From: Candidatus Sumerlaeia bacterium
Lineage (GTDB): Bacteria > Sumerlaeota > Sumerlaeia > JADFCW01
Assembly: GCA_026415575.1 (NCBI GenBank)
Contig: JAOAGV010000001.1
Coordinates: forward strand, 49,399 to 113,398
Reading direction: 5' to 3'
Length of the DNA stretch: 64,000 bases
Part shown: one piece after another, positions 3,538 through 48,778 of the stretch
How positions within the stretch are numbered: position 1 is the stretch's first letter
Layout of the letters: every line of letters begins with the position of its first letter
Program-made: the position numbers and the translations under genes
The notes under the pieces: generated by a model
What the model was told of the DNA's origin: nothing
Databases searched by the model: none
What the model saw: the letters and a program-made list of their open reading frames with translations, nothing else

Positions 3538-3684
3538 GACTTTGGACTGCGGCAGCCATGTTGCCGCTTTGCTGAAATCGTCCGTCGTCAGACAAAGCGT
3601 TTGCACTGTGGAAAACCGCCCCGCTTGGCGGGGTTGATCTTGGCGAAAAAGAAAGCGGCAGCGCGGCTGCCGCAGTCCAAAGCG
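3538..3684. repeat. MITE-like palindromic element, copy 1 (about 146 bp, about 30-bp terminal inverted repeats)
   Basis: The left end TTTGGACTGCGGCAGCCATGTTGCCGCTTTG is matched at the right end by its reverse complement, AAAGCGGCAGCGCGGCTGCCGCAGTCCAAAGC. The internal part is conserved with copies at about 13.9 kb and 25.5 kb. The element lies in a 580-bp intergenic gap. Confidence 0.7.
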
Positions 3685-4959: not shown

Positions 4960-4999
4960 GGTTTGTTGCACGGGAAACTAGCCGTTCCTATACCATGCA

Positions 5000-5269
5000 A
5001 ACACATCCACAGATTGCGCGGATTGCGCAAGTTGCGGGGCAGGCGCTTTTTAACAGGACTGTGTTAGGGGGAGATTTGGGAATAAAAACTGGAAGCATAA
5101 AGCCCATTAAGGCGAAATATCCATAAACTTAACTGCACCCCTTTAGCTGAATTCTAACATAACGCACAACAAAACCGAATGTGACATTCATCGGGATTAT
5201 ACAAAGACTTCACGCCAGATTTATTTATTCTTAGCTCACAATCTTTATAGGAAAGAAAGGGAAAGGGCT
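5000..5269 (+). promoter_or_regulatory. AT-rich (about 38% GC) leader/promoter region upstream of the tandem secretin genes
   Basis: A sharp GC drop relative to the flanks over a 270-bp non-coding stretch, ending at the RBS GAAAGGGAAAGGG before the ATG at 5270. Confidence 0.35.
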
Positions 5270-6937
5270 ATGAGGTTTGCCATGGTCTCTGCACTCTTTG
5301 TCGCTTTGCTTGCGCCCGCAGCGGCGGGTGAACCCAATCCTAGTGTTGAAAAACCGACTGCTCCTGACGAAATCCCCTCCAACGTTGTCAAAGTTCTGCG
5401 CACGACCAACAAGGCGCAGATCAACCGGTATGTCCCGAAGGTTTATGCATTCAAGAATGTAAATCCCTTCAGTGTGGTTCGCTTTTATCGGCGAGTGATA
5501 GAACTCGAAGAGGGACGGTTTGCAACATTTGTCGCTCCGGATGGGAAGAGCGGGTTGGTCTTGGTGGTTGTGCCGGAATACCAGATCGAATCGCTGGACA
5601 AGCTCATGACGTCGCTGGACCGGCCGGACCTGACCACATCGGGCGACGATTATTACAAATACATCCAGTTGCGCCACCGCGCCGCCGACGACGTGGGGTT
5701 TCTGGGGGCTGTCTGGAGCCAAGGAACGCGCAGCAGCAGCCGTCCGCCGGGCGGCTCGCGGGTCTCGGACGTTGAGTTTTATTGCGATCTGGAAACCAAC
5801 GCCATCTTTGTGCAAGGCCCGCAAAGCATTGCCGACTCGGTGGAATCCGCCGCCCGGGCGCTTGATCTGCCGGTGCCGCAAGTTCTGATCGAGGCGACGC
5901 TCTATGAGCTGGACTTGAACAACGACAATGCCATCGGCTTCGATTACTATGCGTGGAAAAACGGTCCGGGCCGCAATCTGTTTGCCGTTGGCGCTTATGC
6001 CGAATACGAAAAAGTCAACGAGCTGCAGGGGGGAGTGCCGCTTTACAACAGCGGTGTGAACAGCTTCGGACTTCCTGAAAGCCGCTTTCGCAGCCGCGGG
6101 GCCAACGCCGCCTACTTTCTCGATATTCCTTCGGCGTATCTAGACTTTTTAGTGACCAAGGGCGTGGGCCGGATCATTACAACAGGCCGCATTCTGAGCA
6201 AGATTCCGACGACATATAAGTCGGGCTTGAACGCCTTCGGACAGGCGACGTTTGATCCCGAAACGGACCGCCCCGCGCTCGCCGCCGCTCCCGCCGAGTT
6301 TCGCGCCAATGACGAGGTGCTTTACTACAAGGTCGAGACCGGTCCGACGCCCCGCGCCGGCGCGCGCGCACCGGCAAGTGTCCTCGACCCCTACGGCGAC
6401 GACCCAACCTATCCCGACAACCGCACGGTGGTCGGCAAGGCAGTGCCGCTGCGGGCCGGCGGCACGACGGTGAACCAGCGCACGCTGGCCGCCGTGGAGG
6501 TCGGAACGTTGCTGCAAGTGACCCCCCGCATTGCCGAGGAAGACATGTCGCTCCGGCTGCGAATGGAGGTCTCCAGCCTTCTGGGATTTGACGGCACGGG
6601 CAATCCACGCATCAGTGCCCGTCGCGTGGAAACTGACGTGCGCGTTCGCGACGGCGAAGAGGTCGTTTTCGGCGGCATCGAGCGGACATCGCGGATGCAG
6701 TCCACGCGCAAGATGCCGCTTCTGGGTTCGCTGCCCGGGATCGGCTGGGCGTTCGGACACGAAATGGGCGGCAGCAAAAAATGCGTAGTGGTGGCCGTGA
6801 TCCGGGCCGTCCGGCAGTCGGGCGGTCTAACGGCGGAGGCTGCCGAAGTCGCCCGCCAAGTCGGCGATGAGGCGCCCGCGCCTCTGCCACCCAACCGGTT
6901 CGGTTTTGATCAGTGGTGGATTGACAATACGCGGTAA
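5270..6937 (+). CDS. secretin-family outer-membrane channel protein (GspD/PilQ-like), paralog 1
   Basis: A signal peptide, then a secretin-N-like region (VVKVLRTTNKAQINRYV...). The secretin domain begins QVLIEATLYELDLNNDNAIGFDYYAWKNGPG. The C-terminal motif is KMPLLGSLPGIGWAFGHE. Confidence 0.75.
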   Translation: MRFAMVSALFVALLAPAAAGEPNPSVEKPTAPDEIPSNVVKVLRTTNKAQINRYVPKVYAFKNVNPFSVVRFYRRVIELEEGRFATFVAPDGKSGLVLVVVPEYQIESLDKLMTSLDRPDLTTSGDDYYKYIQLRHRAADDVGFLGAVWSQGTRSSSRPPGGSRVSDVEFYCDLETNAIFVQGPQSIADSVESAARALDLPVPQVLIEATLYELDLNNDNAIGFDYYAWKNGPGRNLFAVGAYAEYEKVNELQGGVPLYNSGVNSFGLPESRFRSRGANAAYFLDIPSAYLDFLVTKGVGRIITTGRILSKIPTTYKSGLNAFGQATFDPETDRPALAAAPAEFRANDEVLYYKVETGPTPRAGARAPASVLDPYGDDPTYPDNRTVVGKAVPLRAGGTTVNQRTLAAVEVGTLLQVTPRIAEEDMSLRLRMEVSSLLGFDGTGNPRISARRVETDVRVRDGEEVVFGGIERTSRMQSTRKMPLLGSLPGIGWAFGHEMGGSKKCVVVAVIRAVRQSGGLTAEAAEVARQVGDEAPAPLPPNRFGFDQWWIDNTR

Positions 6938-13570: not shown

Positions 13571-13800
13571 TTTCTTTGCCTCCTGAAGCAGTGTTCACCG
13601 AAACGAAACTGTATCGGGACAAGCCCCTCGGCGTCAATAAAAGTTGGCGGGGATGAGCCGAAATCTGATTGCGGATTGCGGGGGGCTTCTCACAAAATCG
13701 GCAAAAGGTCGTTCGATCATGCTGTGGTTTTTTGACTGGAACAGCCAAAGGGGAAAGGCCTCGACCGCGCCCTTGTCATTATACACAAATCGGCCTCTGC

Positions 13801-14046
13801 TTTGGACTGCGGCAGCCACGCTCCCGCTTTTTCCCTTTGGACTGCGGGAGCCATGCTCCTGCTTTTTCTTTTACCAAACTCAACCCCCTGCCGGCAATCT
13901 GCTTTGGACTGCGGCAGCCACGCTGCCACTTTCTTTTGTGCCAAGTTCAAACCCGCCAAGCGTCGGTTTTCCCTTCAGTAACGACGCTTTGTCTGACAAT
14001 GGGCGCTTCCAGCAAAGCGGTAGCAGGCTGCCCGCATTCCAAAGCC
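13801..14046. repeat. MITE-like element cluster: one full inverted copy (about 13901..14046) plus two extra terminal-repeat half-copies (13801, 13835)
   Basis: TTTGGACTGCGGCAGCCACGCT occurs three times. The reverse complement of 13901..14046 aligns along its whole length to copy 1 at 3538..3684. Confidence 0.65.
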
Positions 14047-24404: not shown

Positions 24405-25451
24405 ATGCAACCCATGACCCACTCGCAATGGAACACCCTGCTGGCAGTACTCCGCGGCGAACTTCTCTCGCCCCCTCCCGTCGCGTTCATCATGGACAGT
24501 CCGTGGTTACCCAACTGGGCGGGCATGACCCTGCTCGACTACTTCAGCAGCGAGGAGCAATGGTTTGAGGCGAACCTCAAAGCGATGACAGAATTCCCCG
24601 AAGCCATTTTTCTGCCCGGCTTTTGGGCGGAGTTTGGCATGTGCACCGAGCCGTCGGCCTTCGGCGCCAAGTGCGTGTTCCCGGAAAACGAATTCCCGCA
24701 CGCCGCCAAGATCATCCAGTCGGTCGAGGACATTGACCGCCTCAGCCCGCCCAACCCGAAAACCGACGGCCTGCTGCCGCTTGTGATCAAGCGTCTGCAA
24801 CACTACCGGCCGCGAATCGAGGCGGCGGGGCATTCCATCCGGTTTGCGGTTTCACGCGGCCCGCTCAACGTCGCCTCGTTTCTCATGGGCATTACGGAAT
24901 TCCTGATGGAGATCAAATGCAATCCGGAGAGGATTCATCAGCTGTTGCGCCTGACGACGGTTTTCATTGCAGACTGGATTGCCTATCAGCGCGAGTGCTT
25001 CCCGACTATTGACGGTGTGCTTCTGCTCGATGACATCGTGGGGTTTCTCGGCGAAGAGGATTTCAAGGAATTCGGCCTGCCCTATCTGAAGGAACTCTAT
25101 GCAAAGTCCGGCGTCTCAGTCCGGTTTTTTCACAACGACGCCCCCTGCCGCAGTTCGGCTCCCTATCTGCACGAAGCGGGGATCAATCTTTACAACATGG
25201 GAATCGAGTCCGCGCTGGGCGATGTGCGCGATTGGGTGGGCCCCGAAGTGACATTGATGGGCAACATTCCGCCGAGGGATGTGCTGGCCGCCGGCACCCC
25301 GCGCGACGTGGCCGATGCCGTTGGCCGTCAATACGCCTCCCTGCCCGACCGCCGCCGTGTTCTTTTCTCCTGCGGCGGGGGGTTGCCGCCCGGAGTCTCC
25401 ACCGAAAACCTTCGCGCATTTCTGTCGGCCGTCGCAAAGGCGGGCGCGTGA
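24405..25451 (+). CDS. uroporphyrinogen decarboxylase (URO-D) family protein (MtaA/HemE-like fold; likely not HemE itself)
   Basis: Length and motifs (FIMDSPW, GFLGEEDFKEFGLPYLKEL, FFHNDAPCRS) fit the URO-D/methyltransferase family. The genomic context is sugar catabolism. Confidence 0.65.
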   Translation: MQPMTHSQWNTLLAVLRGELLSPPPVAFIMDSPWLPNWAGMTLLDYFSSEEQWFEANLKAMTEFPEAIFLPGFWAEFGMCTEPSAFGAKCVFPENEFPHAAKIIQSVEDIDRLSPPNPKTDGLLPLVIKRLQHYRPRIEAAGHSIRFAVSRGPLNVASFLMGITEFLMEIKCNPERIHQLLRLTTVFIADWIAYQRECFPTIDGVLLLDDIVGFLGEEDFKEFGLPYLKELYAKSGVSVRFFHNDAPCRSSAPYLHEAGINLYNMGIESALGDVRDWVGPEVTLMGNIPPRDVLAAGTPRDVADAVGRQYASLPDRRRVLFSCGGGLPPGVSTENLRAFLSAVAKAGA

Positions 25452-25512
25452 TTCCCGTCAAAGACCCGACTTGGGCAGGACGAACGAAAAAAGTTTTATC
25501 CCTGATTGAGGT

Positions 25513-25656
25513 TTTGGACTGCGGCAGCCATGCTGCCGCTTTGCTGAAATCGTTTGTTGTCAGGCGAAGCGTCGGCGCTGAGGAAAGAACCCGCGCTTGG
25601 CGGGTTTGAATTTAGCACGAAAGAAAGCGGCAGCATGTCTGCCGCAATCCAAAGCG
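25513..25656. repeat. MITE-like palindromic element, copy 3
   Basis: TTTGGACTGCGGCAGCCATGCTGCCGCTTTGCTGAAATCG...CGCGCTTGGCGGGTTTGAA...AAAGCGGCAGCATGTCTGCCGCAATCCAAAGC is collinear with copy 1. Confidence 0.65.
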
Positions 25657-25825
25657 GCCGACGATTTGTGCATAATGACAAGGGCGCGGCCTCAGGCCCT
25701 TTCCTTTTCGCATCTCCAGCCGAAATAAGGCCAAAGCATGCTCGAACGACCTTCTCCCGATTTTGGGAGATGCTCCCTCCTTGGCCTTTGCAAGAGATTG
25801 GCTGTGAAAGAATTCAGAGAAACGC

Positions 25826-27202
25826 CTAACTTTCACACTCTTTCGAGTGCTCTCGCCACAGGCCTTTTCGTTTTTCGCGCGCCTCGGCTTCGTATTGCTC
25901 GAAACGCTTGCGGTGGCGGTAGGGGTGCGAGCGGTCGGCGCGGGCATAGCCGTCGCGGATCATGCGCGCGTTAAGAAACTTTTTGTTGCTCAGGTGGACG
26001 TAGGCGGGACCAGAAGCGCCGTCGGCGAGCGGCCCGTGGTCGTTGCTGAGTTCAAGCCCGCTGCTGCGAACCATGCGCTCAAGATGTTCGATTGCCAGTT
26101 CCTGCGCGCGAGATTTGCTTTCGACAGAAGGCCACGGGGCGACGCCGAGCAGCGTGATGGTGCGTCCATCGCGCAGCAACAGTTCGGCAGGACTCAGGAC
26201 GGTTTTCAGTTGAGCCTTTTTCTTCGGGAATTGCTGTTTCACCGTGACGCGTGTCCCATACGAGTTTTCCCGCGGATCCACAGCGCGGCGAATTTGCACA
26301 CTACCGCTTGCGGCTGCGGGGCCTGCGCTCCAGCGCCGGATACGTTCCTCGAAATCTTCGGGCGAGGCGGACCGCTCGATGAACTCAAGGTTCGGCAGCC
26401 CGATCGCGTTGAACAATTCGCCGCCCTCGCGCATCCGATTCTCGATGGTTGCGCGGAATTCCGGGTTGATCTCGTAGCCCACAGAATTGCGGCCGAGTCG
26501 GTGCGCCGCCAGCGAGGTCGTCCCGCTGCCGAGAAAGGGATCGAGCACGGTTTCACCGGCAAAGGTGAACATGCGAATGAGCCGGCGCGGCAGTTCGAGC
26601 GGAAAGGCGGCCGGATGCTCTCCCTGACGGACGCCGCTGAAATTCCAGTGGCCGTAAAAATACTCGTTCCACTCCTCAGTCGTCAGGCGCGCGGCTTCTT
26701 TGGCGGCAAGCGAGGGCGGAGGGGGCGCCTTGCCGGGTTTTTTGAAAATCACGATGAACTCATAGTCAATCTTGATGATGCCATTGCGCGGAAACGGAAA
26801 GGAACCCATGATTGCCGCGCCGCCCGACGTATTGCATGTGGTAACCTTTTGCCAGATGATTGCGCCCATATAGTCGAGACCGAGTTTTTTTTCGCAAAAG
26901 CCGACAATTTCCTCGCGGATGGGAATTACTTTGTAGCGTCCATAGTGGGCGGCGCGGGCGAACTGGTCGCCGATGTTGACGCACAGCCGGCAGCCGTCGT
27001 GGAGCACGCGCGCACATTCTTCCCACACCAGATTCAGATTGTTGATGTAGGCGCGATAGTCATCGTGAAAGCCGATCTGGTCCGCCGCGCCGTAATCTTT
27101 GATCTGCCAATAGGGCGGCGAAGTGACGACCAGATGAACGCTCCGGTCGGGCAGTTCCGGCATCGCGCGGGAATCGGCAAAGATGATTTTGTGCGTGGAC
27201 AT
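25826..27202 (-). CDS. DNA methyltransferase (beta-class, SPPY motif: probable N4-cytosine MTase) fused to a C-terminal SNase-like (thermonuclease-fold) domain
   Basis: Motif IV TSPPYW precedes motif I DPFLGSGTT, which is the beta permutation. The C-terminal 150 aa (TVLSPAELLLRDGRTITLLGVAPWPS...GPAYVHLSNKKFLNARMIRDGYA...EAEAREKRKGLWR) aligns to staphylococcal nuclease topology. The canonical VDTPE metal site reads VAPWP. Confidence 0.8.
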   Translation of the reverse strand: MSTHKIIFADSRAMPELPDRSVHLVVTSPPYWQIKDYGAADQIGFHDDYRAYINNLNLVWEECARVLHDGCRLCVNIGDQFARAAHYGRYKVIPIREEIVGFCEKKLGLDYMGAIIWQKVTTCNTSGGAAIMGSFPFPRNGIIKIDYEFIVIFKKPGKAPPPPSLAAKEAARLTTEEWNEYFYGHWNFSGVRQGEHPAAFPLELPRRLIRMFTFAGETVLDPFLGSGTTSLAAHRLGRNSVGYEINPEFRATIENRMREGGELFNAIGLPNLEFIERSASPEDFEERIRRWSAGPAAASGSVQIRRAVDPRENSYGTRVTVKQQFPKKKAQLKTVLSPAELLLRDGRTITLLGVAPWPSVESKSRAQELAIEHLERMVRSSGLELSNDHGPLADGASGPAYVHLSNKKFLNARMIRDGYARADRSHPYRHRKRFEQYEAEAREKRKGLWREHSKECES

Positions 27203-27551
27203 AAAGGCGGCAAGTAATCCTCACTCTCAATCTGTTACCTTGCAAATGAAATGGTGAATTCGTGTCCCGAGCGATTCAAGTGTGAATGCGCGACTGCACC
27301 GTCAGTTTTCCAAGATACTGATAGTGCCACAAAAACGGGGGAAGAATCCGACAGTTATTACTATATGCATTGTGTGGAACACGGAGAGTGTTTTTGTGGG
27401 TTTGGCATTTTTATCTTGCACTCTGCGGTTACTTGATGCCAATCTTTATTAGAGCCATAATGAAATACGCTTTACGGGGTAGGCAACATAGGAATTTGCA
27501 CTTTGGGCAATACCCAGTATCTACTTACAAACCACAGAAAGGAGTAAGAAT

Positions 27552-28070
27552 ATGGCGTATTGGCTATTCTACGTTATGGACTTTGTAAGCGAATCAGGTG
27601 GCTTTAAGAAACAAGTGCAATGGGGGGTTGCAGCACAACAATATCCTACCCCTGATTGGGTAGGCGCATACCAGAATATGCCGCTCCTGCGCAAAATCAA
27701 GTGCGGCGATTGGCTCGTCGCAGGACGCTCTTGTCGGTTTGCGGGCTATGCGCAATCTCTGTCAGACTTTTATCAGGGCGGCCGCTCGCTTGACATACCT
27801 TGCCCCTATGATCCGGACTACCACTTTGAATTTTACGAACGTGTGGATGTGGAATGGTATGTAGTGCCTGGGTATGAAGACTACGAAAACTGGTTGGATT
27901 TGCACGATTTCAAGAAGGCACTCCTGAAGGAACAGCAGAGAACAGGAGGAAGTCGATCCTATAGTCCCATTGATTTCCCCATGGGGAGATGCCTTAAGCA
28001 AATTAATGCGGGTCTGTTCAAGGAACTGCGCAGGCGACTCGACGAAGCCGGCGCACGTCCCATTGGCTGA
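27552..28070 (+). CDS. hypothetical protein, possible PUA-like (EVE-type) modified-base-binding domain
   Basis: N-terminal MAYWLF and KIKCGDWLVAG resemble the EVE hallmarks (M-x-YWL...MK-x-GD). The gene has about 42-50% GC. RBS AAAGGAG. It ends at a TGA in the same frame as the downstream HNH ORF. Confidence 0.5.
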   Translation: MAYWLFYVMDFVSESGGFKKQVQWGVAAQQYPTPDWVGAYQNMPLLRKIKCGDWLVAGRSCRFAGYAQSLSDFYQGGRSLDIPCPYDPDYHFEFYERVDVEWYVVPGYEDYENWLDLHDFKKALLKEQQRTGGSRSYSPIDFPMGRCLKQINAGLFKELRRRLDEAGARPIG

Positions 28071-28142
28071 AGAAGGCGCGATGTTCGCCGCTAACGTAGA
28101 CCATCTCTTACATGCTGGGACAGACTTGACGATACCAAGCCA

Positions 28143-28427
28143 ATGCCGGCGCATCACTGCTTCTTTCTGGTCACCAGACCGGTGCGTAGCTCGCGAAATC
28201 GCCTTGCTGCAAAAGAACGTGCGAAATGGTGTTGTGAGGTGCCGGGATGCCGGATCCCAACGTTTATGCAAAGGAACCATGGAAAACCCTATCTTGAAGC
28301 CCACCATCTCGACCCTCTGGGAGAAAAGGGGGCCGAACACCTGTCGAATATTGCCGTCGTAGACGCTTGGCACCATGCCTTATTGACATATGGTCCCCTA
28401 AAGGACGCTAAAAAAGTCGCCGGGTAA
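28143..28427 (+). CDS. HNH endonuclease domain ORF (possibly the severed C-terminal half of an EVE-HNH Type IV restriction gene)
   Basis: WCCEVPGC...YLEAHHLDPLGEKGAEHLSNIAVVDAWHH has the C-x2-C, the catalytic His and the N...H-H of the HNH motif. There is no convincing RBS. It is in the same frame as 27552..28070. Confidence 0.55.
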   Translation: MPAHHCFFLVTRPVRSSRNRLAAKERAKWCCEVPGCRIPTFMQRNHGKPYLEAHHLDPLGEKGAEHLSNIAVVDAWHHALLTYGPLKDAKKVAG

Positions 28428-28640
28428 CTAAGAAACGTAAGGCGTGCAAAAAGATAGGTGGAAAACGGCCGCAAAACACGGGACCTGTCCGTCTGCTCGG
28501 CTCTTTTTTTCTCTTGAACGCTTTTCTGTCCCTGCGCCAGCATAGCGGCCTCGAACGCGGGATTCGGCCGGGGGGCGGATTTCCCGTTCTAAGGCCCGAT
28601 GGAACAAAGGGCCATCGTGTCCAGAAAGGAGGTGATCCGA

Positions 28641-29240
28641 ATGCGAAAAGGTTTTACCCTGATTGAGCTGTTGATCGTGGTGGCCATCATCGCTATCCTT
28701 GCGGCGATTGCCATTCCGAACTTTCTCGAAGCGCAAACGCGGTCGAAGGTCTCCAGAGCCATGGCGGATATGCGCACACTGGCCACAGCGCTCGAATGCT
28801 ACGCCGTGGACCAGAACGGCGATTATCCATTCGACCTCGACAGCCGCGGATGGCCGTGGTATATCACCGATGTCCTATCTACGCCAATTACTTATGTAAC
28901 CAATGCGGCCTCGCTTCACGATCCGTTTCGGATGCATTTGAATCAGAACGATGCCAGCTGGCGCTTTCGGTATGTGAACTATCGCGCCAACTACGGCAGC
29001 AAACCGTGGCCGCCGTGCTGGTGTCCGGGGCCTTATTACACGCGATGGGTTGCCAGCACGCCCGACAGCACGGTTGACCAAGGTATCGAACAATGGGGAT
29101 TGTGGAAGCTCAGTTCGGCTGGACCCGACCGGACGGCCAATTCGAGTTTTTTCGTGGGCGATTTGGTCTATGATCCGACCAACGGAACAATTTCCGGCGG
29201 CGATGTCATCCGCTCGCAAAAGACCGGTCAGCGGAAGTAA
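28641..29240 (+). CDS. prepilin-type N-terminal cleavage/methylation domain protein (pseudopilin-like)
   Basis: MRKGFTLIELLIVVAIIAILAAIAIPNF is the class III signal peptide and methylation motif. RBS AAAGGAGGTG. Confidence 0.8.
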   Translation: MRKGFTLIELLIVVAIIAILAAIAIPNFLEAQTRSKVSRAMADMRTLATALECYAVDQNGDYPFDLDSRGWPWYITDVLSTPITYVTNAASLHDPFRMHLNQNDASWRFRYVNYRANYGSKPWPPCWCPGPYYTRWVASTPDSTVDQGIEQWGLWKLSSAGPDRTANSSFFVGDLVYDPTNGTISGGDVIRSQKTGQRK

Positions 29241-47333: not shown

Positions 47334-48491
47334 TCATGCAACGACCGACAGGCGCGCGTGGGCTTCCCGAATGATGCTGCGCACCGGCAGCCCCATCGGG
47401 CATTTCGACTCGCACAGGCCGCAATCGCCGCAGGCGGCCGCCGTTTGCTGCGGCTGAATTTCTGCATAGCGCTCGGCCGCCAGTGCCGCCAGCCCCTGCT
47501 GCTCGTAGTAATAGCTGTAGTCGCGCACGATCGCCTGAACATCTACTCCACGCGGGCAGCCTTCGCACAGACCGCACAGCGTGCAGGTGCCGTCGGCCAT
47601 TGCCACTGCGCGCGAGCCCGCGTCGGCTTTTTGCTGTGCGGCTTTGCTGACCGCCGCAAACCATCCGTCCACCTCTTCGCGCGTATTCAGCGTCCGCAGC
47701 ACCGTGGTCACACCCGCCGGAAACAGCGCCGAAACCACTTGCTCAGGAGTTGCCTGTGCCTTGCCCCGGCCCATCTGCGTCTTCATGGCCATAATGCCGA
47801 CGTTTTCCTGATTGGCGCGCTGCAAGGTCTTGCGGAACAGGTTGACGTTGTTTGGCGTAATGACCGACAGAATCGTGCTATACCACTTGGCATCCAAGCC
47901 GGCCTCCATGCTTTCCTGCAGGCTCTGGTGCGTGGTGAGATTGTAGAACCGCACTTTGCCGGCCTTGCGGAGCGCCTCAAATTTGGCGAGTTCTTTTTCG
48001 CTCTTGATCTGTTCGGGCGTCCAAACCGGCAGACACAGAATGTCCACGTGGTCGGTATTCAAAACCTTCAACTGGTCGTCAATGCTGTCGGGCAGGCCTT
48101 TTCCGTGCTCGCCCTTCAGCATAATCCACACCTTGTCGCGGTTGCCGGGCTTTTTCAAAAATAGCCCCAAGTTCTTGTTCGCCTCGCCGTTCAAGTAGCC
48201 GTTGCTGGTATGGACGAGGTTGACACCGCGCTCTACGGCCATCTCAAGGATGGGCAGGTGGTCCGGCGACAGTCGAATGCAGCCAAAAGTAAGGCGGCTG
48301 ACATTCAGACCGGTCTTTCCGAACGGCTGATAGACCATCCCCGATTGCTCGTTGCGGCGTTCCAACTTGGTTTCGGCAGCCAGTACGGGGCCGGCCAAGG
48401 CAGCGGCCAAGCCGGCTGCGGTGCGGCCGACAAATTCGCGTCGGTTGATCCCGTTACGTGATACTGGTTTCCTCATGGTGCACTCCTTCAC
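47334..48491 (-). CDS. aldo/keto reductase with TAT signal and C-terminal 2x[4Fe-4S] ferredoxin-like domain
   Basis: NRREFVGRTAAGLAAALAG is the TAT signal. An AKR barrel follows (YQPFGKTGLNVSRLTFG), then CTLCGLCEGCP and CGDCGLCESKCP. Confidence 0.8.
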   Translation of the reverse strand: MKECTMRKPVSRNGINRREFVGRTAAGLAAALAGPVLAAETKLERRNEQSGMVYQPFGKTGLNVSRLTFGCIRLSPDHLPILEMAVERGVNLVHTSNGYLNGEANKNLGLFLKKPGNRDKVWIMLKGEHGKGLPDSIDDQLKVLNTDHVDILCLPVWTPEQIKSEKELAKFEALRKAGKVRFYNLTTHQSLQESMEAGLDAKWYSTILSVITPNNVNLFRKTLQRANQENVGIMAMKTQMGRGKAQATPEQVVSALFPAGVTTVLRTLNTREEVDGWFAAVSKAAQQKADAGSRAVAMADGTCTLCGLCEGCPRGVDVQAIVRDYSYYYEQQGLAALAAERYAEIQPQQTAAACGDCGLCESKCPMGLPVRSIIREAHARLSVVA

Positions 48492-48778
48492 GATAGTTGA
48501 TGGATCGTATGATCCTTACAAAAAAGTAAAAATTTTGCACGAAAAGGGGAGCGGCTAAAAGCAGCGAGGGATAAAACTTTGCAAAATCCTCGATTTTTTT
48601 TGCGGGATTTTAAACCCGCAATTGATAACTATTCTTATCTGAAGAGACATGTCAAATGCATTTTTACCCCACTGACCGACATCCTTGCACCATCGCCCTG
48701 ACTTTGCGCTTGCGCCACATTCGCTTCCTAACCTACAGTCGGAATCAGAAACGAGACGGAGATCGAAAGAGGAGTCTC
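48492..48778. promoter_or_regulatory. AT-rich divergent promoter region with two palindromes (GCGGG-ATTTTAAA-CCCGC; GATAA-CTATTC-TTATC)
   Basis: It lies between the divergently transcribed AKR and NfeD genes. GC drops sharply, and there are perfect inverted repeats at about 48598..48615 and 48622..48637. Confidence 0.3.

What the first reader, a model, noticed from the sequence alone, without database searches (positions are those of the whole stretch)
25826..28430. Low-GC defence-type island: m4C-type MTase fused to SNase-like domain, next to a disrupted EVE-like + HNH (Type IV-like) module
GC falls from about 63% to about 42-50% between 27.2 and 28.4 kb. Within and beside that patch sit three nucleic-acid-targeting ORFs: a beta-class SPPY methyltransferase with a C-terminal thermonuclease-fold domain, a PUA/EVE-like ORF, and an HNH nuclease ORF. 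MITE copy 3 (25513..25656) is immediately to the left. A prepilin-like gene follows on the right. The island sits between a sugar-catabolic block and unrelated genes, consistent with horizontal acquisition. A new m4C methylase next to an inactivated modification-dependent nuclease would fit resolution of a methylase versus Type IV conflict.
Basis: partly seen in the sequence, partly recalled or inferred. Interest (0 to 1): 0.8.

Follow-up and report, generated by a model that had tools for sequence, protein, structure and literature searches.

The report
Dead methyl-reader nuclease beside resident methylase
A low-GC 1.3-kb insert in a Sumerlaeia genome holds a restriction gene of the kind that cuts modified DNA, killed by three premature stop codons, next to an intact and older DNA methylase gene; this is ordinary defence-gene decay, and the methylase-versus-nuclease conflict is not supported.

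Summary
The sequence observations hold.

- **Methylase.** ORF 25826-27202(-) is an intact beta-class TSPPY DNA methylase. It carries a C-terminal SNase-fold domain that lacks the catalytic residues. This fusion is a large, already catalogued family.
- **Composition.** The GC dip and tetranucleotide deviation are the most extreme in the window.
- **Island limits.** Only 27213-28505 is extra. A related genome (82-85% nt identity) has the methylase and pilin genes 192 bp apart. So the methylase is the resident, not the newcomer.
- **Conflict idea.** A third lineage carries both genes intact in the same divergent layout, which argues against an inherent conflict.
- **Methylase target.** Two orthologue lineages sit beside MjaI-family (CTAG) restriction genes, and CTAG is strongly depleted here. 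I infer an orphan m4C-CTAG methylase.

Verdict: a decayed member of a small, unannotated reader-nuclease family. Low to moderate interest.

The parts
25826..27202 (-). Intact 458-aa beta-class DNA methylase gene with a C-terminal SNase-fold domain. Motif IV TSPPY is at aa 27-31 and motif I FLGSG at aa 223-227. It is a resident gene, probably an orphan m4C-CTAG methylase.
   Evidence: PF01555 E 2.9e-41 and PF00565 E 2.9e-09. PADLOC MTase_II model PDLC03259 matches over the full length at E 3.2e-149. PDB 2zie matches at E 4.5e-55. The orthologue in L001 is 82% identical at nucleotide level. Orthologues sit next to RE_MjaI genes in L002/L003 and L020.
25829..26251 (-). SNase-fold (OB-fold) C-terminal domain of the methylase, about aa 318-458. 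It is predicted to be catalytically dead.
   Evidence: hhalign of the family's C-terminal domain against staphylococcal nuclease gives 92.5% probability over SNase residues 5-149. SNase D21, R35, D40, T41, E43 and R87 align to A, T, A, P, P and S in the window protein. Apart from R35 they are not conserved in the family.
27213..28505 (.). Low-GC segment (GC 0.494) that is present in the window and absent from the syntenic locus L001, where 192 unrelated bp stand in its place.
   Evidence: blastn and MAFFT against L001. L001's spacer shows no residual similarity to it. GC and tetranucleotide values are the extremes of the window. No flanking direct or inverted repeats were found.
27213..27551 (+). 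It holds one sigma-70-like match (27433-27461) and an RBS-like AAAGGAG at about 27538-27544.
   Evidence: No Rfam family matches. The promoter match is consensus only, and the count is no higher than in shuffled sequence.
27552..28070 (+). 5' part of the pseudogene: a 172-aa reader domain with an EVE/YTH-like (PUA superfamily) fold, ending at premature stop TGA 28068-28070.
28071..28094 (+). Linker stretch ending in the second in-frame stop, TAA 28092-28094.
   Evidence: The in-frame translation is colinear with the intact homologues in L008 and L007.
28095..28457 (+). 3' part of the pseudogene: the rest of the linker, a McrA-type HNH domain and the tail. The third premature stop, TAA 28425-28427, aligns to Gln in intact homologues. 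Homology continues (LRNVRRAKR) to TAG 28455-28457. A zinc-ligand Cys is replaced by Asp at 28362-28364.
   Evidence: PADLOC mREase_IV E 1.3e-05. E. coli McrA 6ghc E 2.7e-04. ScoMcrA 5zmm matches the intact homologue. The alignment to L007/L008 shows VVDAWHH against VVCAWHH. blastn homology to L007 extends to window 28459.
28641..29240 (+). Prepilin-type (pseudopilin-like) gene. It is the conserved neighbour of the methylase gene in L001 and is not part of the insert.
   Evidence: PF07963 E 6.9e-09 and TIGR02532. Window 28506-29239 is 84.8% identical at nucleotide level to L001 92-826.
25513..25656 (.). MITE-like element of about 144 bp with 30-bp terminal inverted repeats, just 3' of the methylase gene. 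This is where synteny with L001 ends.
   Evidence: Copies lie at 3541-3684 and 13901-14046 (80-82% identity), with partial copies at about 13774-13887. The terminal repeat also occurs in L001 at 6410-6441.

Best explanation
The region holds two things of different age.

(1) A resident, intact DNA methylase. It has a beta-class TSPPY methylase domain followed by a catalytically dead SNase/OB-fold domain. I infer that it methylates CTAG to m4C and acts here as an orphan methylase, because no restriction gene is next to it.

(2) A 1.3-kb foreign, lower-GC segment (27213-28505) in the divergent promoter region between the methylase gene and a pseudopilin gene. It carries one former gene for a Type IV, modification-dependent restriction endonuclease.

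In intact relatives of 301-305 aa, this enzyme has an N-terminal EVE/YTH-like reader, a linker, and a C-terminal McrA-type HNH nuclease. I infer that it restricts phage DNA carrying modified bases.

In the window the gene is dead. It has three in-frame nonsense codons, a Cys-to-Asp change at a zinc ligand and a Trp-to-Phe change at an invariant Trp. The simplest reading is neutral decay of an acquired, dispensable defence gene. At most a free 172-aa reader domain could still be made.

Shown: domain identities, fold, colinearity with intact homologues, the stop codons, synteny, and the compositional anomaly. Inferred: CTAG/m4C specificity, modification dependence, insertion rather than deletion in the relative, and the reason for inactivation.
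For: Frame and stops. The two ORFs share a frame and are colinear with intact homologues in L008 (305 aa) and L007 (301 aa). Stops are at 28068, 28092 and 28425.

Modular reader family. Of 37 members scanned, HNH is found in 14, HNH_2 in 7, NOV_C in 3, PDDEXK_4 in 2, McrB-like AAA_5 in 2, and a canonical EVE domain in 5; one of those 5 (P0126) is a weak hit on its own N-terminal reader domain, E 0.006.

HNH type. It matches McrA-type HNH and PADLOC Type IV models.

Genomic context of relatives. They sit in defence-type settings without a methylase of this family: an MNT-HEPN module, a NACHT STAND protein, and others. This fits Type IV enzymes, which rarely neighbour DNA methylases (under 6% of PUA-nuclease ORFs; PMC6765204).

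Synteny. L001 has the methylase and pilin genes 192 bp apart, at 82-85% nt identity.

Composition. The insert has GC 0.494 against 0.59 for the window and is the top tetranucleotide outlier.

Methylase. It is intact, and the family is large.

CTAG inference. RE_MjaI genes sit directly upstream of orthologues that are 75% and 69% identical. M.MthZI on plasmid pFZ1 is among the best plasmid relatives (E 3e-33). CTAG is the most depleted 4-bp palindrome in the window: 7 observed against 49.6 expected. Orphan m4C-CTAG TSPPY methylases are documented (PMC7708080, PMC5867850).
Against: The insertion cannot be strictly told apart from a deletion in L001. No target-site duplication or remnant was found.

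AT-biased decay of a pseudogene could explain part of the low GC without recent transfer. Intact homologues have GC 0.55-0.57.

The reader domain is well preserved, with only 4 of 40 conserved columns changed. A truncated reader protein could therefore still be functional.

The contig comes from a metagenome-assembled genome, so the stops could be minority variants or errors. Three independent stops make that unlikely.

CTAG depletion is common in bacteria and is weak evidence.
Confidence: 0.72

Rival explanations
1. The Type IV nuclease recognises the methylation made by the neighbouring methylase (m4C). Their coexistence was toxic, and the nuclease was inactivated by selection to resolve the conflict.
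For: An intact methylase sits 350 bp from a dead modification-dependent nuclease gene. Conflicts of this kind are an established concept (PMC2993543 listed; PMC6765204). One of the lesions hits a zinc ligand of the nuclease domain.
Against: L007 and L018 carry an intact methylase orthologue (74% aa identity to the window's, with no stops over 453 aa). It lies divergently adjacent to an intact reader-HNH gene (65% identity). So the pair can coexist. The methylase is the older resident rather than a newcomer. No characterised EVE-HNH enzyme is reported to read m4C; VcaM4I-group enzymes read 5mC and 5hmC. Neutral decay explains the same data.
Confidence: 0.12
2. The methylase and the reader-HNH gene form a cooperating two-gene module that moves as a unit. 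One possibility is that the reader senses the methylase's mark on host DNA to keep the nuclease off self DNA. Another is that the methylase gene serves as the homology anchor that carries the nuclease gene between genomes. On this view the window holds a decayed copy of that module.
For: The same divergent layout occurs in the window and in L007/L018/L019, although fewer than 6% of PUA-nuclease genes have any DNA methylase within 3 kb. That is the footprint expected from homology-anchored integration through the methylase gene.
Against: No methylase of this family was found in any of the other reader-family loci examined: L008 (the same contig as L012, and also seen in L013), L009-L011 and L014-L017. 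Five other methylase loci (L001, L002, L004, L005, L006) and L020 have other neighbours or none; L021's contig begins 140 bp upstream of the methylase gene, so it says nothing about that side. The window methylase shows no mosaic structure relative to L001. The genes are on opposite strands and so are not an operon.
Confidence: 0.1
3. The split is functional. The 172-aa reader ORF and the 94-aa HNH ORF are made as two separate proteins, either a stand-alone modified-base binder plus a small nuclease or a two-subunit enzyme.
For: Stand-alone proteins of 153-172 aa exist in the family, for example P0123, P0131 and P0152. The window reader domain is well conserved and has an RBS-like AAAGGAG upstream.
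Against: Two stops lie eight codons apart in the linker. The downstream ORF has no RBS-like sequence before its ATG at 28143. It has lost a zinc ligand and carries a further premature stop. [quoted passage not shown] Some short family members may themselves be fragments or pseudogenes; P0124, for example, has a scrambled HNH part.
Confidence: 0.05

Closest known systems
VcaM4I / TspA15I group of EVE-HNH modification-dependent restriction endonucleases (PDB 6yex; PMC7897488, PMC6765204)
   Different: No sequence-level similarity to the EVE domain was detected: Pfam EVE gives no hit, and hhalign gives 7% probability. The HNH domain is nearest to McrA/ScoMcrA, and no match to VcaM4I appeared in the PDB sequence search. 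The specificity is unknown. The window copy is a pseudogene.
E. coli McrA (PDB 6ghc) and Streptomyces ScoMcrA (PDB 5zmm), Type IV HNH enzymes
   Same: The C-terminal HNH domain matches both at sequence level (E 2.7e-04 and 9.7e-04). It also matches the PADLOC mREase_IV models built on them.
   Different: The N-terminal reader is unrelated to the McrA N-terminal domain and to the ScoMcrA SBD/SRA domains; no hits were found there. The second zinc-binding element is C-x2-H rather than C-x2-C, and in the window copy it is D-x2-H.
m4C-CTAG beta-class methylases: M.MthZI, M.MjaI, M.BfaI, Haloferax HVO_0794 and Leptospira LomA (PMC5867850, PMC7708080)
   Same: All share the TSPPY motif IV, the beta-class motif order and a frequent orphan status conserved within a clade. 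M.MthZI on pFZ1 is a top plasmid relative (34% identity, E 3e-33). Orthologues of the window gene are paired with MjaI-family restriction genes.
   Different: The window family has an extra C-terminal SNase-fold domain of about 190 aa. It is 425-480 aa long, against 303-364 aa reported for the characterised enzymes. Identity to M.MthZI is only about 34%, so the specificity is inferred.
Thermus thermophilus TTHA0409 putative modification methylase (PDB 2zie)
   Same: It is the best solved-structure match to the methylase domain (E 4.5e-55, residues 3-257).
   Different: At 297 aa it lacks the SNase-fold tail, and its specificity is not established in the data I had.

Membership tests
Beta-class N4/N6 amino-DNA methyltransferase (PF01555) | Profile match above the curated cut-off | tested here: met
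   142.3 bits against a cut-off of 26.7, E 2.9e-41, covering profile positions 1-219 of 221.
Beta-class N4/N6 amino-DNA methyltransferase (PF01555) | Catalytic motif IV (S/D/N)PP(Y/F) lies N-terminal to AdoMet motif I FxGxG (beta-class order) | tested here: met
   TSPPY is at aa 27-31 and FLGSG at aa 223-227 (translations).
m4C-CTAG methylases (M.MjaI / M.MthZI type) | Methylates the first C of CTAG at N4 | not testable with these tools
   Indirect evidence only: RE_MjaI neighbours of orthologues, 34% identity to M.MthZI, a TSPPY motif, and a CTAG observed/expected ratio of 0.14.
Staphylococcal nuclease (PF00565) | Profile or fold match | tested here: met
   37.8 bits against a cut-off of 21, E 2.9e-09. 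hhalign gives 92.5% probability over SNase residues 5-149.
Staphylococcal nuclease (PF00565) | Ca2+ ligands and catalytic residues D21, D40, T41, E43, R35 and R87 | tested here: not met
   They align to A, A, P, P, T and S in the window protein. All but R35 are variable across 120 family members.
EVE domain (PF01878), PUA superfamily | Sequence profile match | tested here: not met
   The window ORF has no hit at E <= 0.1. One family member (P0126) has a sub-threshold hit at E 0.006. hhalign against canonical EVE domains gives 7% probability.
EVE domain (PF01878), PUA superfamily | EVE/YTH-type pseudobarrel fold | tested here: met
HNH (beta-beta-alpha-Me) nuclease, McrA type | Profile match and H...N...H catalytic residues | tested here: inconclusive
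   Pfam HNH scores 13.7 bits, below the 21.4 cut-off. McrA matches at E 2.7e-04 and PADLOC mREase_IV at E 1.3e-05. The EAHH, SN and WHH residues are present, but the zinc-ligand Cys is Asp.
Type IV / modification-dependent restriction endonuclease (reader plus nuclease fusion) | A single polypeptide joining a modified-base reader to a nuclease | tested here: not met
   The intact homologues P0122 and the L007 protein meet this criterion. The window copy is broken by three in-frame stops, so it is a pseudogene of such an enzyme.
Type IV / modification-dependent restriction endonuclease (reader plus nuclease fusion) | Cleavage depends on DNA modification | not testable with these tools
No phage or plasmid homologue carrying an annotation was found.

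The most novel reading that the evidence does not exclude
The reader domain defines a previously unannotated clade of EVE/YTH-like modified-base sensors. It has 47 clusters, spans bacteria and Methanothrix, and is fused to at least five effector types: four nuclease domains (HNH, HNH_2, NOV_C, PDDEXK_4) and a McrB-type AAA_5 NTPase. Its specificity could differ from the known 5mC/5hmC and 6mA readers. It might read m4C, which would make the recurrent pairing with a CTAG m4C methylase in this lineage functional: either self-marking that restrains the nuclease, or a genuine methylase-nuclease conflict. It might instead read 7-deazaguanine, given the queC/queE/queD/folE neighbours in L011.
Probability: 0.1. 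Interest if true: 0.6.

Novelty: new member of a known kind. Interest (0 to 1): 0.3.

Why it matters
For this genome the result is a corrected annotation. It has one orphan methylase gene, probably m4C-CTAG, which may affect gene regulation as LomA does in Leptospira. It also has one dead Type IV restriction gene that should be marked as a pseudogene rather than as a 'hypothetical protein'.

More generally, the work brings up a small, unannotated family of reader domains that are EVE/YTH-like by fold. They are combined with many nuclease types. Families of this kind have yielded useful modification-specific enzymes before, and intact members (P0122, the L007 protein) are available for testing.

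The work also shows that a low-GC patch next to a methylase does not by itself indicate a methylase-nuclease conflict. Synteny with relatives reversed the inferred order of events.

Tried and rejected
- **Single-sequence AlphaFold** of the 172-aa ORF gave pLDDT 38.6 and was unusable. It was redone with an alignment.
- **Word-indexed protein search** with the 172-aa ORF found only the ORF itself. The exhaustive HMMER search was needed.
- **Exact look-up** of the ORF in the contig index found nothing on record.
- **The search for related loci** with the broad alignment A2 failed for lack of a conserved stretch. The genome-contig scan with A3 found nothing.
- **afdb50 fold library** was unavailable.
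- **Phage collection** held no homologue of the intact enzyme.
- **Plasmid collection** held no full-length methylase-SNase fusion.
- **Rfam** gave nothing credible in 25400-28700.
- **Insert boundaries** showed no target-site duplication or terminal inverted repeats.
- **L001's 192-bp spacer** showed no remnant of the insert.
- **Window methylase gene** showed no mosaic or recombination breakpoint.
- **MjaI-like restriction gene remnant** was not found anywhere in the window or in L001.
- **Frameshifts between the two ORFs** were considered, via the +1-frame ORF 27970-28362. I rejected this because the same-frame translation is colinear with intact homologues.
- **dN/dS** against the intact homologues was not attempted, because about 65% amino-acid identity means saturated synonymous sites.
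Full report
**Source and setting.** The window matches a contig of a 'Candidatus Sumerlaeia bacterium' metagenome-assembled genome. The 172-aa ORF is NCBI locus N3D11_00295 on a 115-kb contig. Overall GC is 0.59.

**Observation check: composition.** GC in 300-bp windows drops to 0.41-0.43 at 27200-27650 and stays at 0.50-0.55 until about 28550. The flanks are at 0.59-0.63. At 1300-bp scale the window starting at 27176 is the lowest of the whole 64 kb: 0.491 against a mean of 0.591 and SD of 0.022. It is also the strongest tetranucleotide outlier, 0.418 against 0.263 +/- 0.033. Short intergenic dips to 0.42-0.43 occur elsewhere, at about 4976 and 48451. So the anomaly lies mainly in the low GC of the coding-like part: 0.51 for the 172-aa ORF and 0.54 for the HNH ORF. 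The methylase gene has host-like GC (0.595).

**The methylase.** ORF 25826-27202(-), 458 aa, matches PF01555 (E 2.9e-41) and PF00565 SNase (E 2.9e-09).
- It has TSPPY at aa 27-31 ahead of FLGSG at aa 223-227, which is the beta-class motif order.
- Its best solved relative is Thermus TTHA0409, PDB 2zie (E 4.5e-55).
- The fusion is not new. PADLOC's REBASE-derived model PDLC03259 matches over the full length (E 3.2e-149).
- The 120 best database hits all cover at least 93% of the protein at 51-82% identity. They come from many phyla, including Kapaibacteria, Latescibacteria, Sedimentisphaerales, KSB1 and Ignavibacteria.
- The methylase domain is very strongly conserved. The C-terminal domain is much less so.
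- A profile alignment to staphylococcal nuclease is significant (hhalign 92.5%). However, SNase D21, R35, D40, T41, E43 and R87 align to A, T, A, P, P and S here, and apart from R35 they are variable in the family.
- I therefore read the tail as a non-catalytic OB-fold module, probably for DNA binding. That function is an inference.

**Likely specificity of the methylase.**
- Orthologues that are 75% (L002/L003) and 69% (L020) identical sit directly downstream of MjaI-family restriction genes. PF09568 scores E 2.1e-50 and PADLOC REase_II E 2.9e-53. MjaI cuts CTAG.
- M.MthZI on plasmid pFZ1 is among the best plasmid relatives of the methylase domain (34% identity, E 3e-33).
- CTAG is the most depleted 4-bp palindrome in the window: 7 observed against 49.6 expected from a Markov model.
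- m4C-CTAG TSPPY methylases that persist as clade-conserved orphans are documented in Leptospira (LomA, PMC7708080) and in Halobacteria (HVO_0794, PMC5867850).
- No MjaI-like remnant exists in the window.
- Conclusion: probably an orphan m4C-CTAG methylase. This is inferred, not shown.

**The two small ORFs are one broken gene.** ORF 27552-28070 and ORF 28143-28427 are in the same frame. An exhaustive HMMER search found 47 homologue clusters of the 172-aa ORF. The best is P0122, at 305 aa and 63% identity. P0122 (locus L008) and a 301-aa homologue in L007 are intact and colinear with the window's in-frame translation. Relative to them the window has the following lesions:
- TGA at 28068-28070.
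- TAA at 28092-28094.
- TAA at 28425-28427, aligned to Gln. The tail LRNVRRAKR remains recognisable up to TAG 28455-28457, and nucleotide homology to L007 runs to 28459.
- VVDAWHH in place of VVCAWHH. By alignment to ScoMcrA and McrA this Cys is a zinc ligand.
- Phe in place of a Trp that is invariant in the other 36 aligned sequences.

That is within the family range of 1-12. Inactivation therefore looks fairly recent.

**What the gene was: the reader domain.** The N-terminal domain has no Pfam, NCBIfam or PADLOC hit and no PDB sequence match. With a 37-sequence alignment, AlphaFold gives pLDDT 96 and pTM 0.90.
- At sequence level only one family member gives a weak EVE hit (E 0.006). Profile-profile comparison with canonical EVE domains is not significant.
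- So the domain is EVE/YTH-like by fold and forms a separate, unannotated family.

**What the gene was: partners, nuclease and mechanism.**
- Family members join this domain to HNH (14 of 37), HNH_2 (7), NOV_C (3), PDDEXK_4 (2) or a McrB-type AAA_5 module (2). Five of the 37 also match the canonical EVE profile; in four of these (P0125, P0127, P0130, P0134) it is a separate second domain, while in P0126 it is a weak hit (E 0.006) on the reader domain itself. This is the classic pattern of a modified-base reader in Type IV systems.
- The C-terminal domain matches the HNH domains of E. coli McrA and ScoMcrA, and PADLOC mREase_IV models.
- Size and layout mirror VcaM4I: EVE 1-147, linker 148-178, HNH 179-309 (PMC7897488).
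- I infer the same mechanism for the intact relatives, with unknown base specificity.

**Extent of the island and order of events.** Locus L001 (GCA_017161705.1) has the orthologous methylase (82% nt identity) and the orthologous prepilin-type gene (85%), divergently arranged and only 192 bp apart.
- Homology with the window stops at 27212 and resumes at 28506. The 1293 bp between those points are extra in the window.
- L001's 192-bp spacer shows no trace of them.
- No flanking repeats mark the insert.
- The window methylase is closest to L001's along its whole length, with no mosaic structure.
- On the other side, synteny ends at the MITE-like element.
A deletion in L001 cannot be formally excluded.

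**The conflict hypothesis.** L007 carries a full-length methylase orthologue (74% aa identity, no stops). After a 163-bp spacer comes an intact divergent reader-HNH gene, in the same layout as the window. L018 and L019, from other assemblies, repeat this arrangement.
- Both genes can therefore coexist intact, which argues against an inherent clash. Differences in specificity between lineages cannot be excluded.
That is the footprint expected if the cargo entered through homologous recombination in the conserved methylase 5' region.
- This hints that the methylase gene acts as an integration anchor, which may explain the shared layout without a functional link.
- Other loci of the methylase clade have different upstream neighbours or none: RE_MjaI, a transposase, or unknown ORFs; L021's contig starts 140 bp upstream of the methylase, so that side is unknown.
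- Lutz et al. found DNA methylases within 3 kb of fewer than 6% of PUA-nuclease genes (PMC6765204). The pairing is therefore unusual, but it is confined to one lineage.

**Verdict.** The features exist as described, and the domain calls were right. The locus is best explained as an orphan, probably m4C-CTAG, methylase gene of a large known family, with a recently decayed Type IV reader-HNH gene inserted in its upstream region. It is not a functional defence system, and the conflict story is not supported.

The one moderately new element is the reader domain family itself. I rate the finding as a new member of a known kind, interest 0.3.

Noticed in passing
window 3541-3684, 13901-14046, 25513-25656 (partial copies at about 13774-13887); L001 6410-6441: A MITE-like element of about 144 bp with 30-bp terminal inverted repeats (TTTGGACTGCGGCAGCCATGCTGCCGCTTT) is present in at least three copies at 80-82% identity. 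Its terminal repeat also occurs in the related genome. The copy at 25513 marks the point where synteny with L001 ends.
   Followed up: partly
whole window; CTAG at 1642, 2172, 4978, 5340, 6140, 17836, 58547: CTAG occurs 7 times against 49.6 expected from a Markov model and 234 expected from base composition. It is the most depleted 4-bp palindrome; GTAC is next (37 against 87). None of the CTAG sites lies in the insert.
   Followed up: partly
L007 6479-10041; L018 87-3649: The order is: full methylase gene, intact reader-HNH gene, PIN-like gene, then a truncated second copy of the methylase 5' end (codons 1-87, about 86-88% nt identity to the full copy). This looks like the footprint of homology-anchored (Campbell-type) integration through the methylase gene.
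   Followed up: partly
L002 9373-9846, L003 1637-2110, L020 243-824: MjaI-family (CTAG) restriction endonuclease genes lie directly upstream of methylase orthologues that are 69-75% identical. The same methylase clade therefore occurs both as a complete Type II system and as an orphan.
   Followed up: yes
L011 6903-7814 and 9040-11714: A reader-HNH_2 family member (P0174) lies about 1.2 kb upstream of a queC / radical-SAM (queE-like) / PTPS (queD) / GTP cyclohydrolase I cluster. These are 7-deazaguanine synthesis genes. The link could be coincidental, or it could hint at a connection with deazaguanine DNA modification.
   Followed up: no
P0127 (732 aa), P0130, P0134, P0125: Some family members carry this reader domain in tandem with a canonical Pfam EVE domain. 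In P0127 these are followed by a McrB-type AAA_5 GTPase module. Two different readers in one Type IV protein suggests that they have distinct specificities.
   Followed up: no
P0124 (241 aa); P0123, P0131, P0152 (about 170 aa): P0124 has an intact reader domain, but its sequence after 'RPVRDPRNRMAAQ' no longer resembles HNH. It looks like another decayed copy. Several reader-only proteins of about 170 aa exist. Loss of the nuclease part may be recurrent in this family.
   Followed up: no
   Followed up: no
window 4960-5270 and about 48450-48750: These are other sharp low-GC dips (0.42-0.43 in 300 bp). They are ordinary intergenic regions; the first lies between an oxidoreductase gene and a 555-aa ORF (5270-6937) that I did not scan, possibly a secretin. 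Low GC in short non-coding stretches is normal for this genome.
   Followed up: partly
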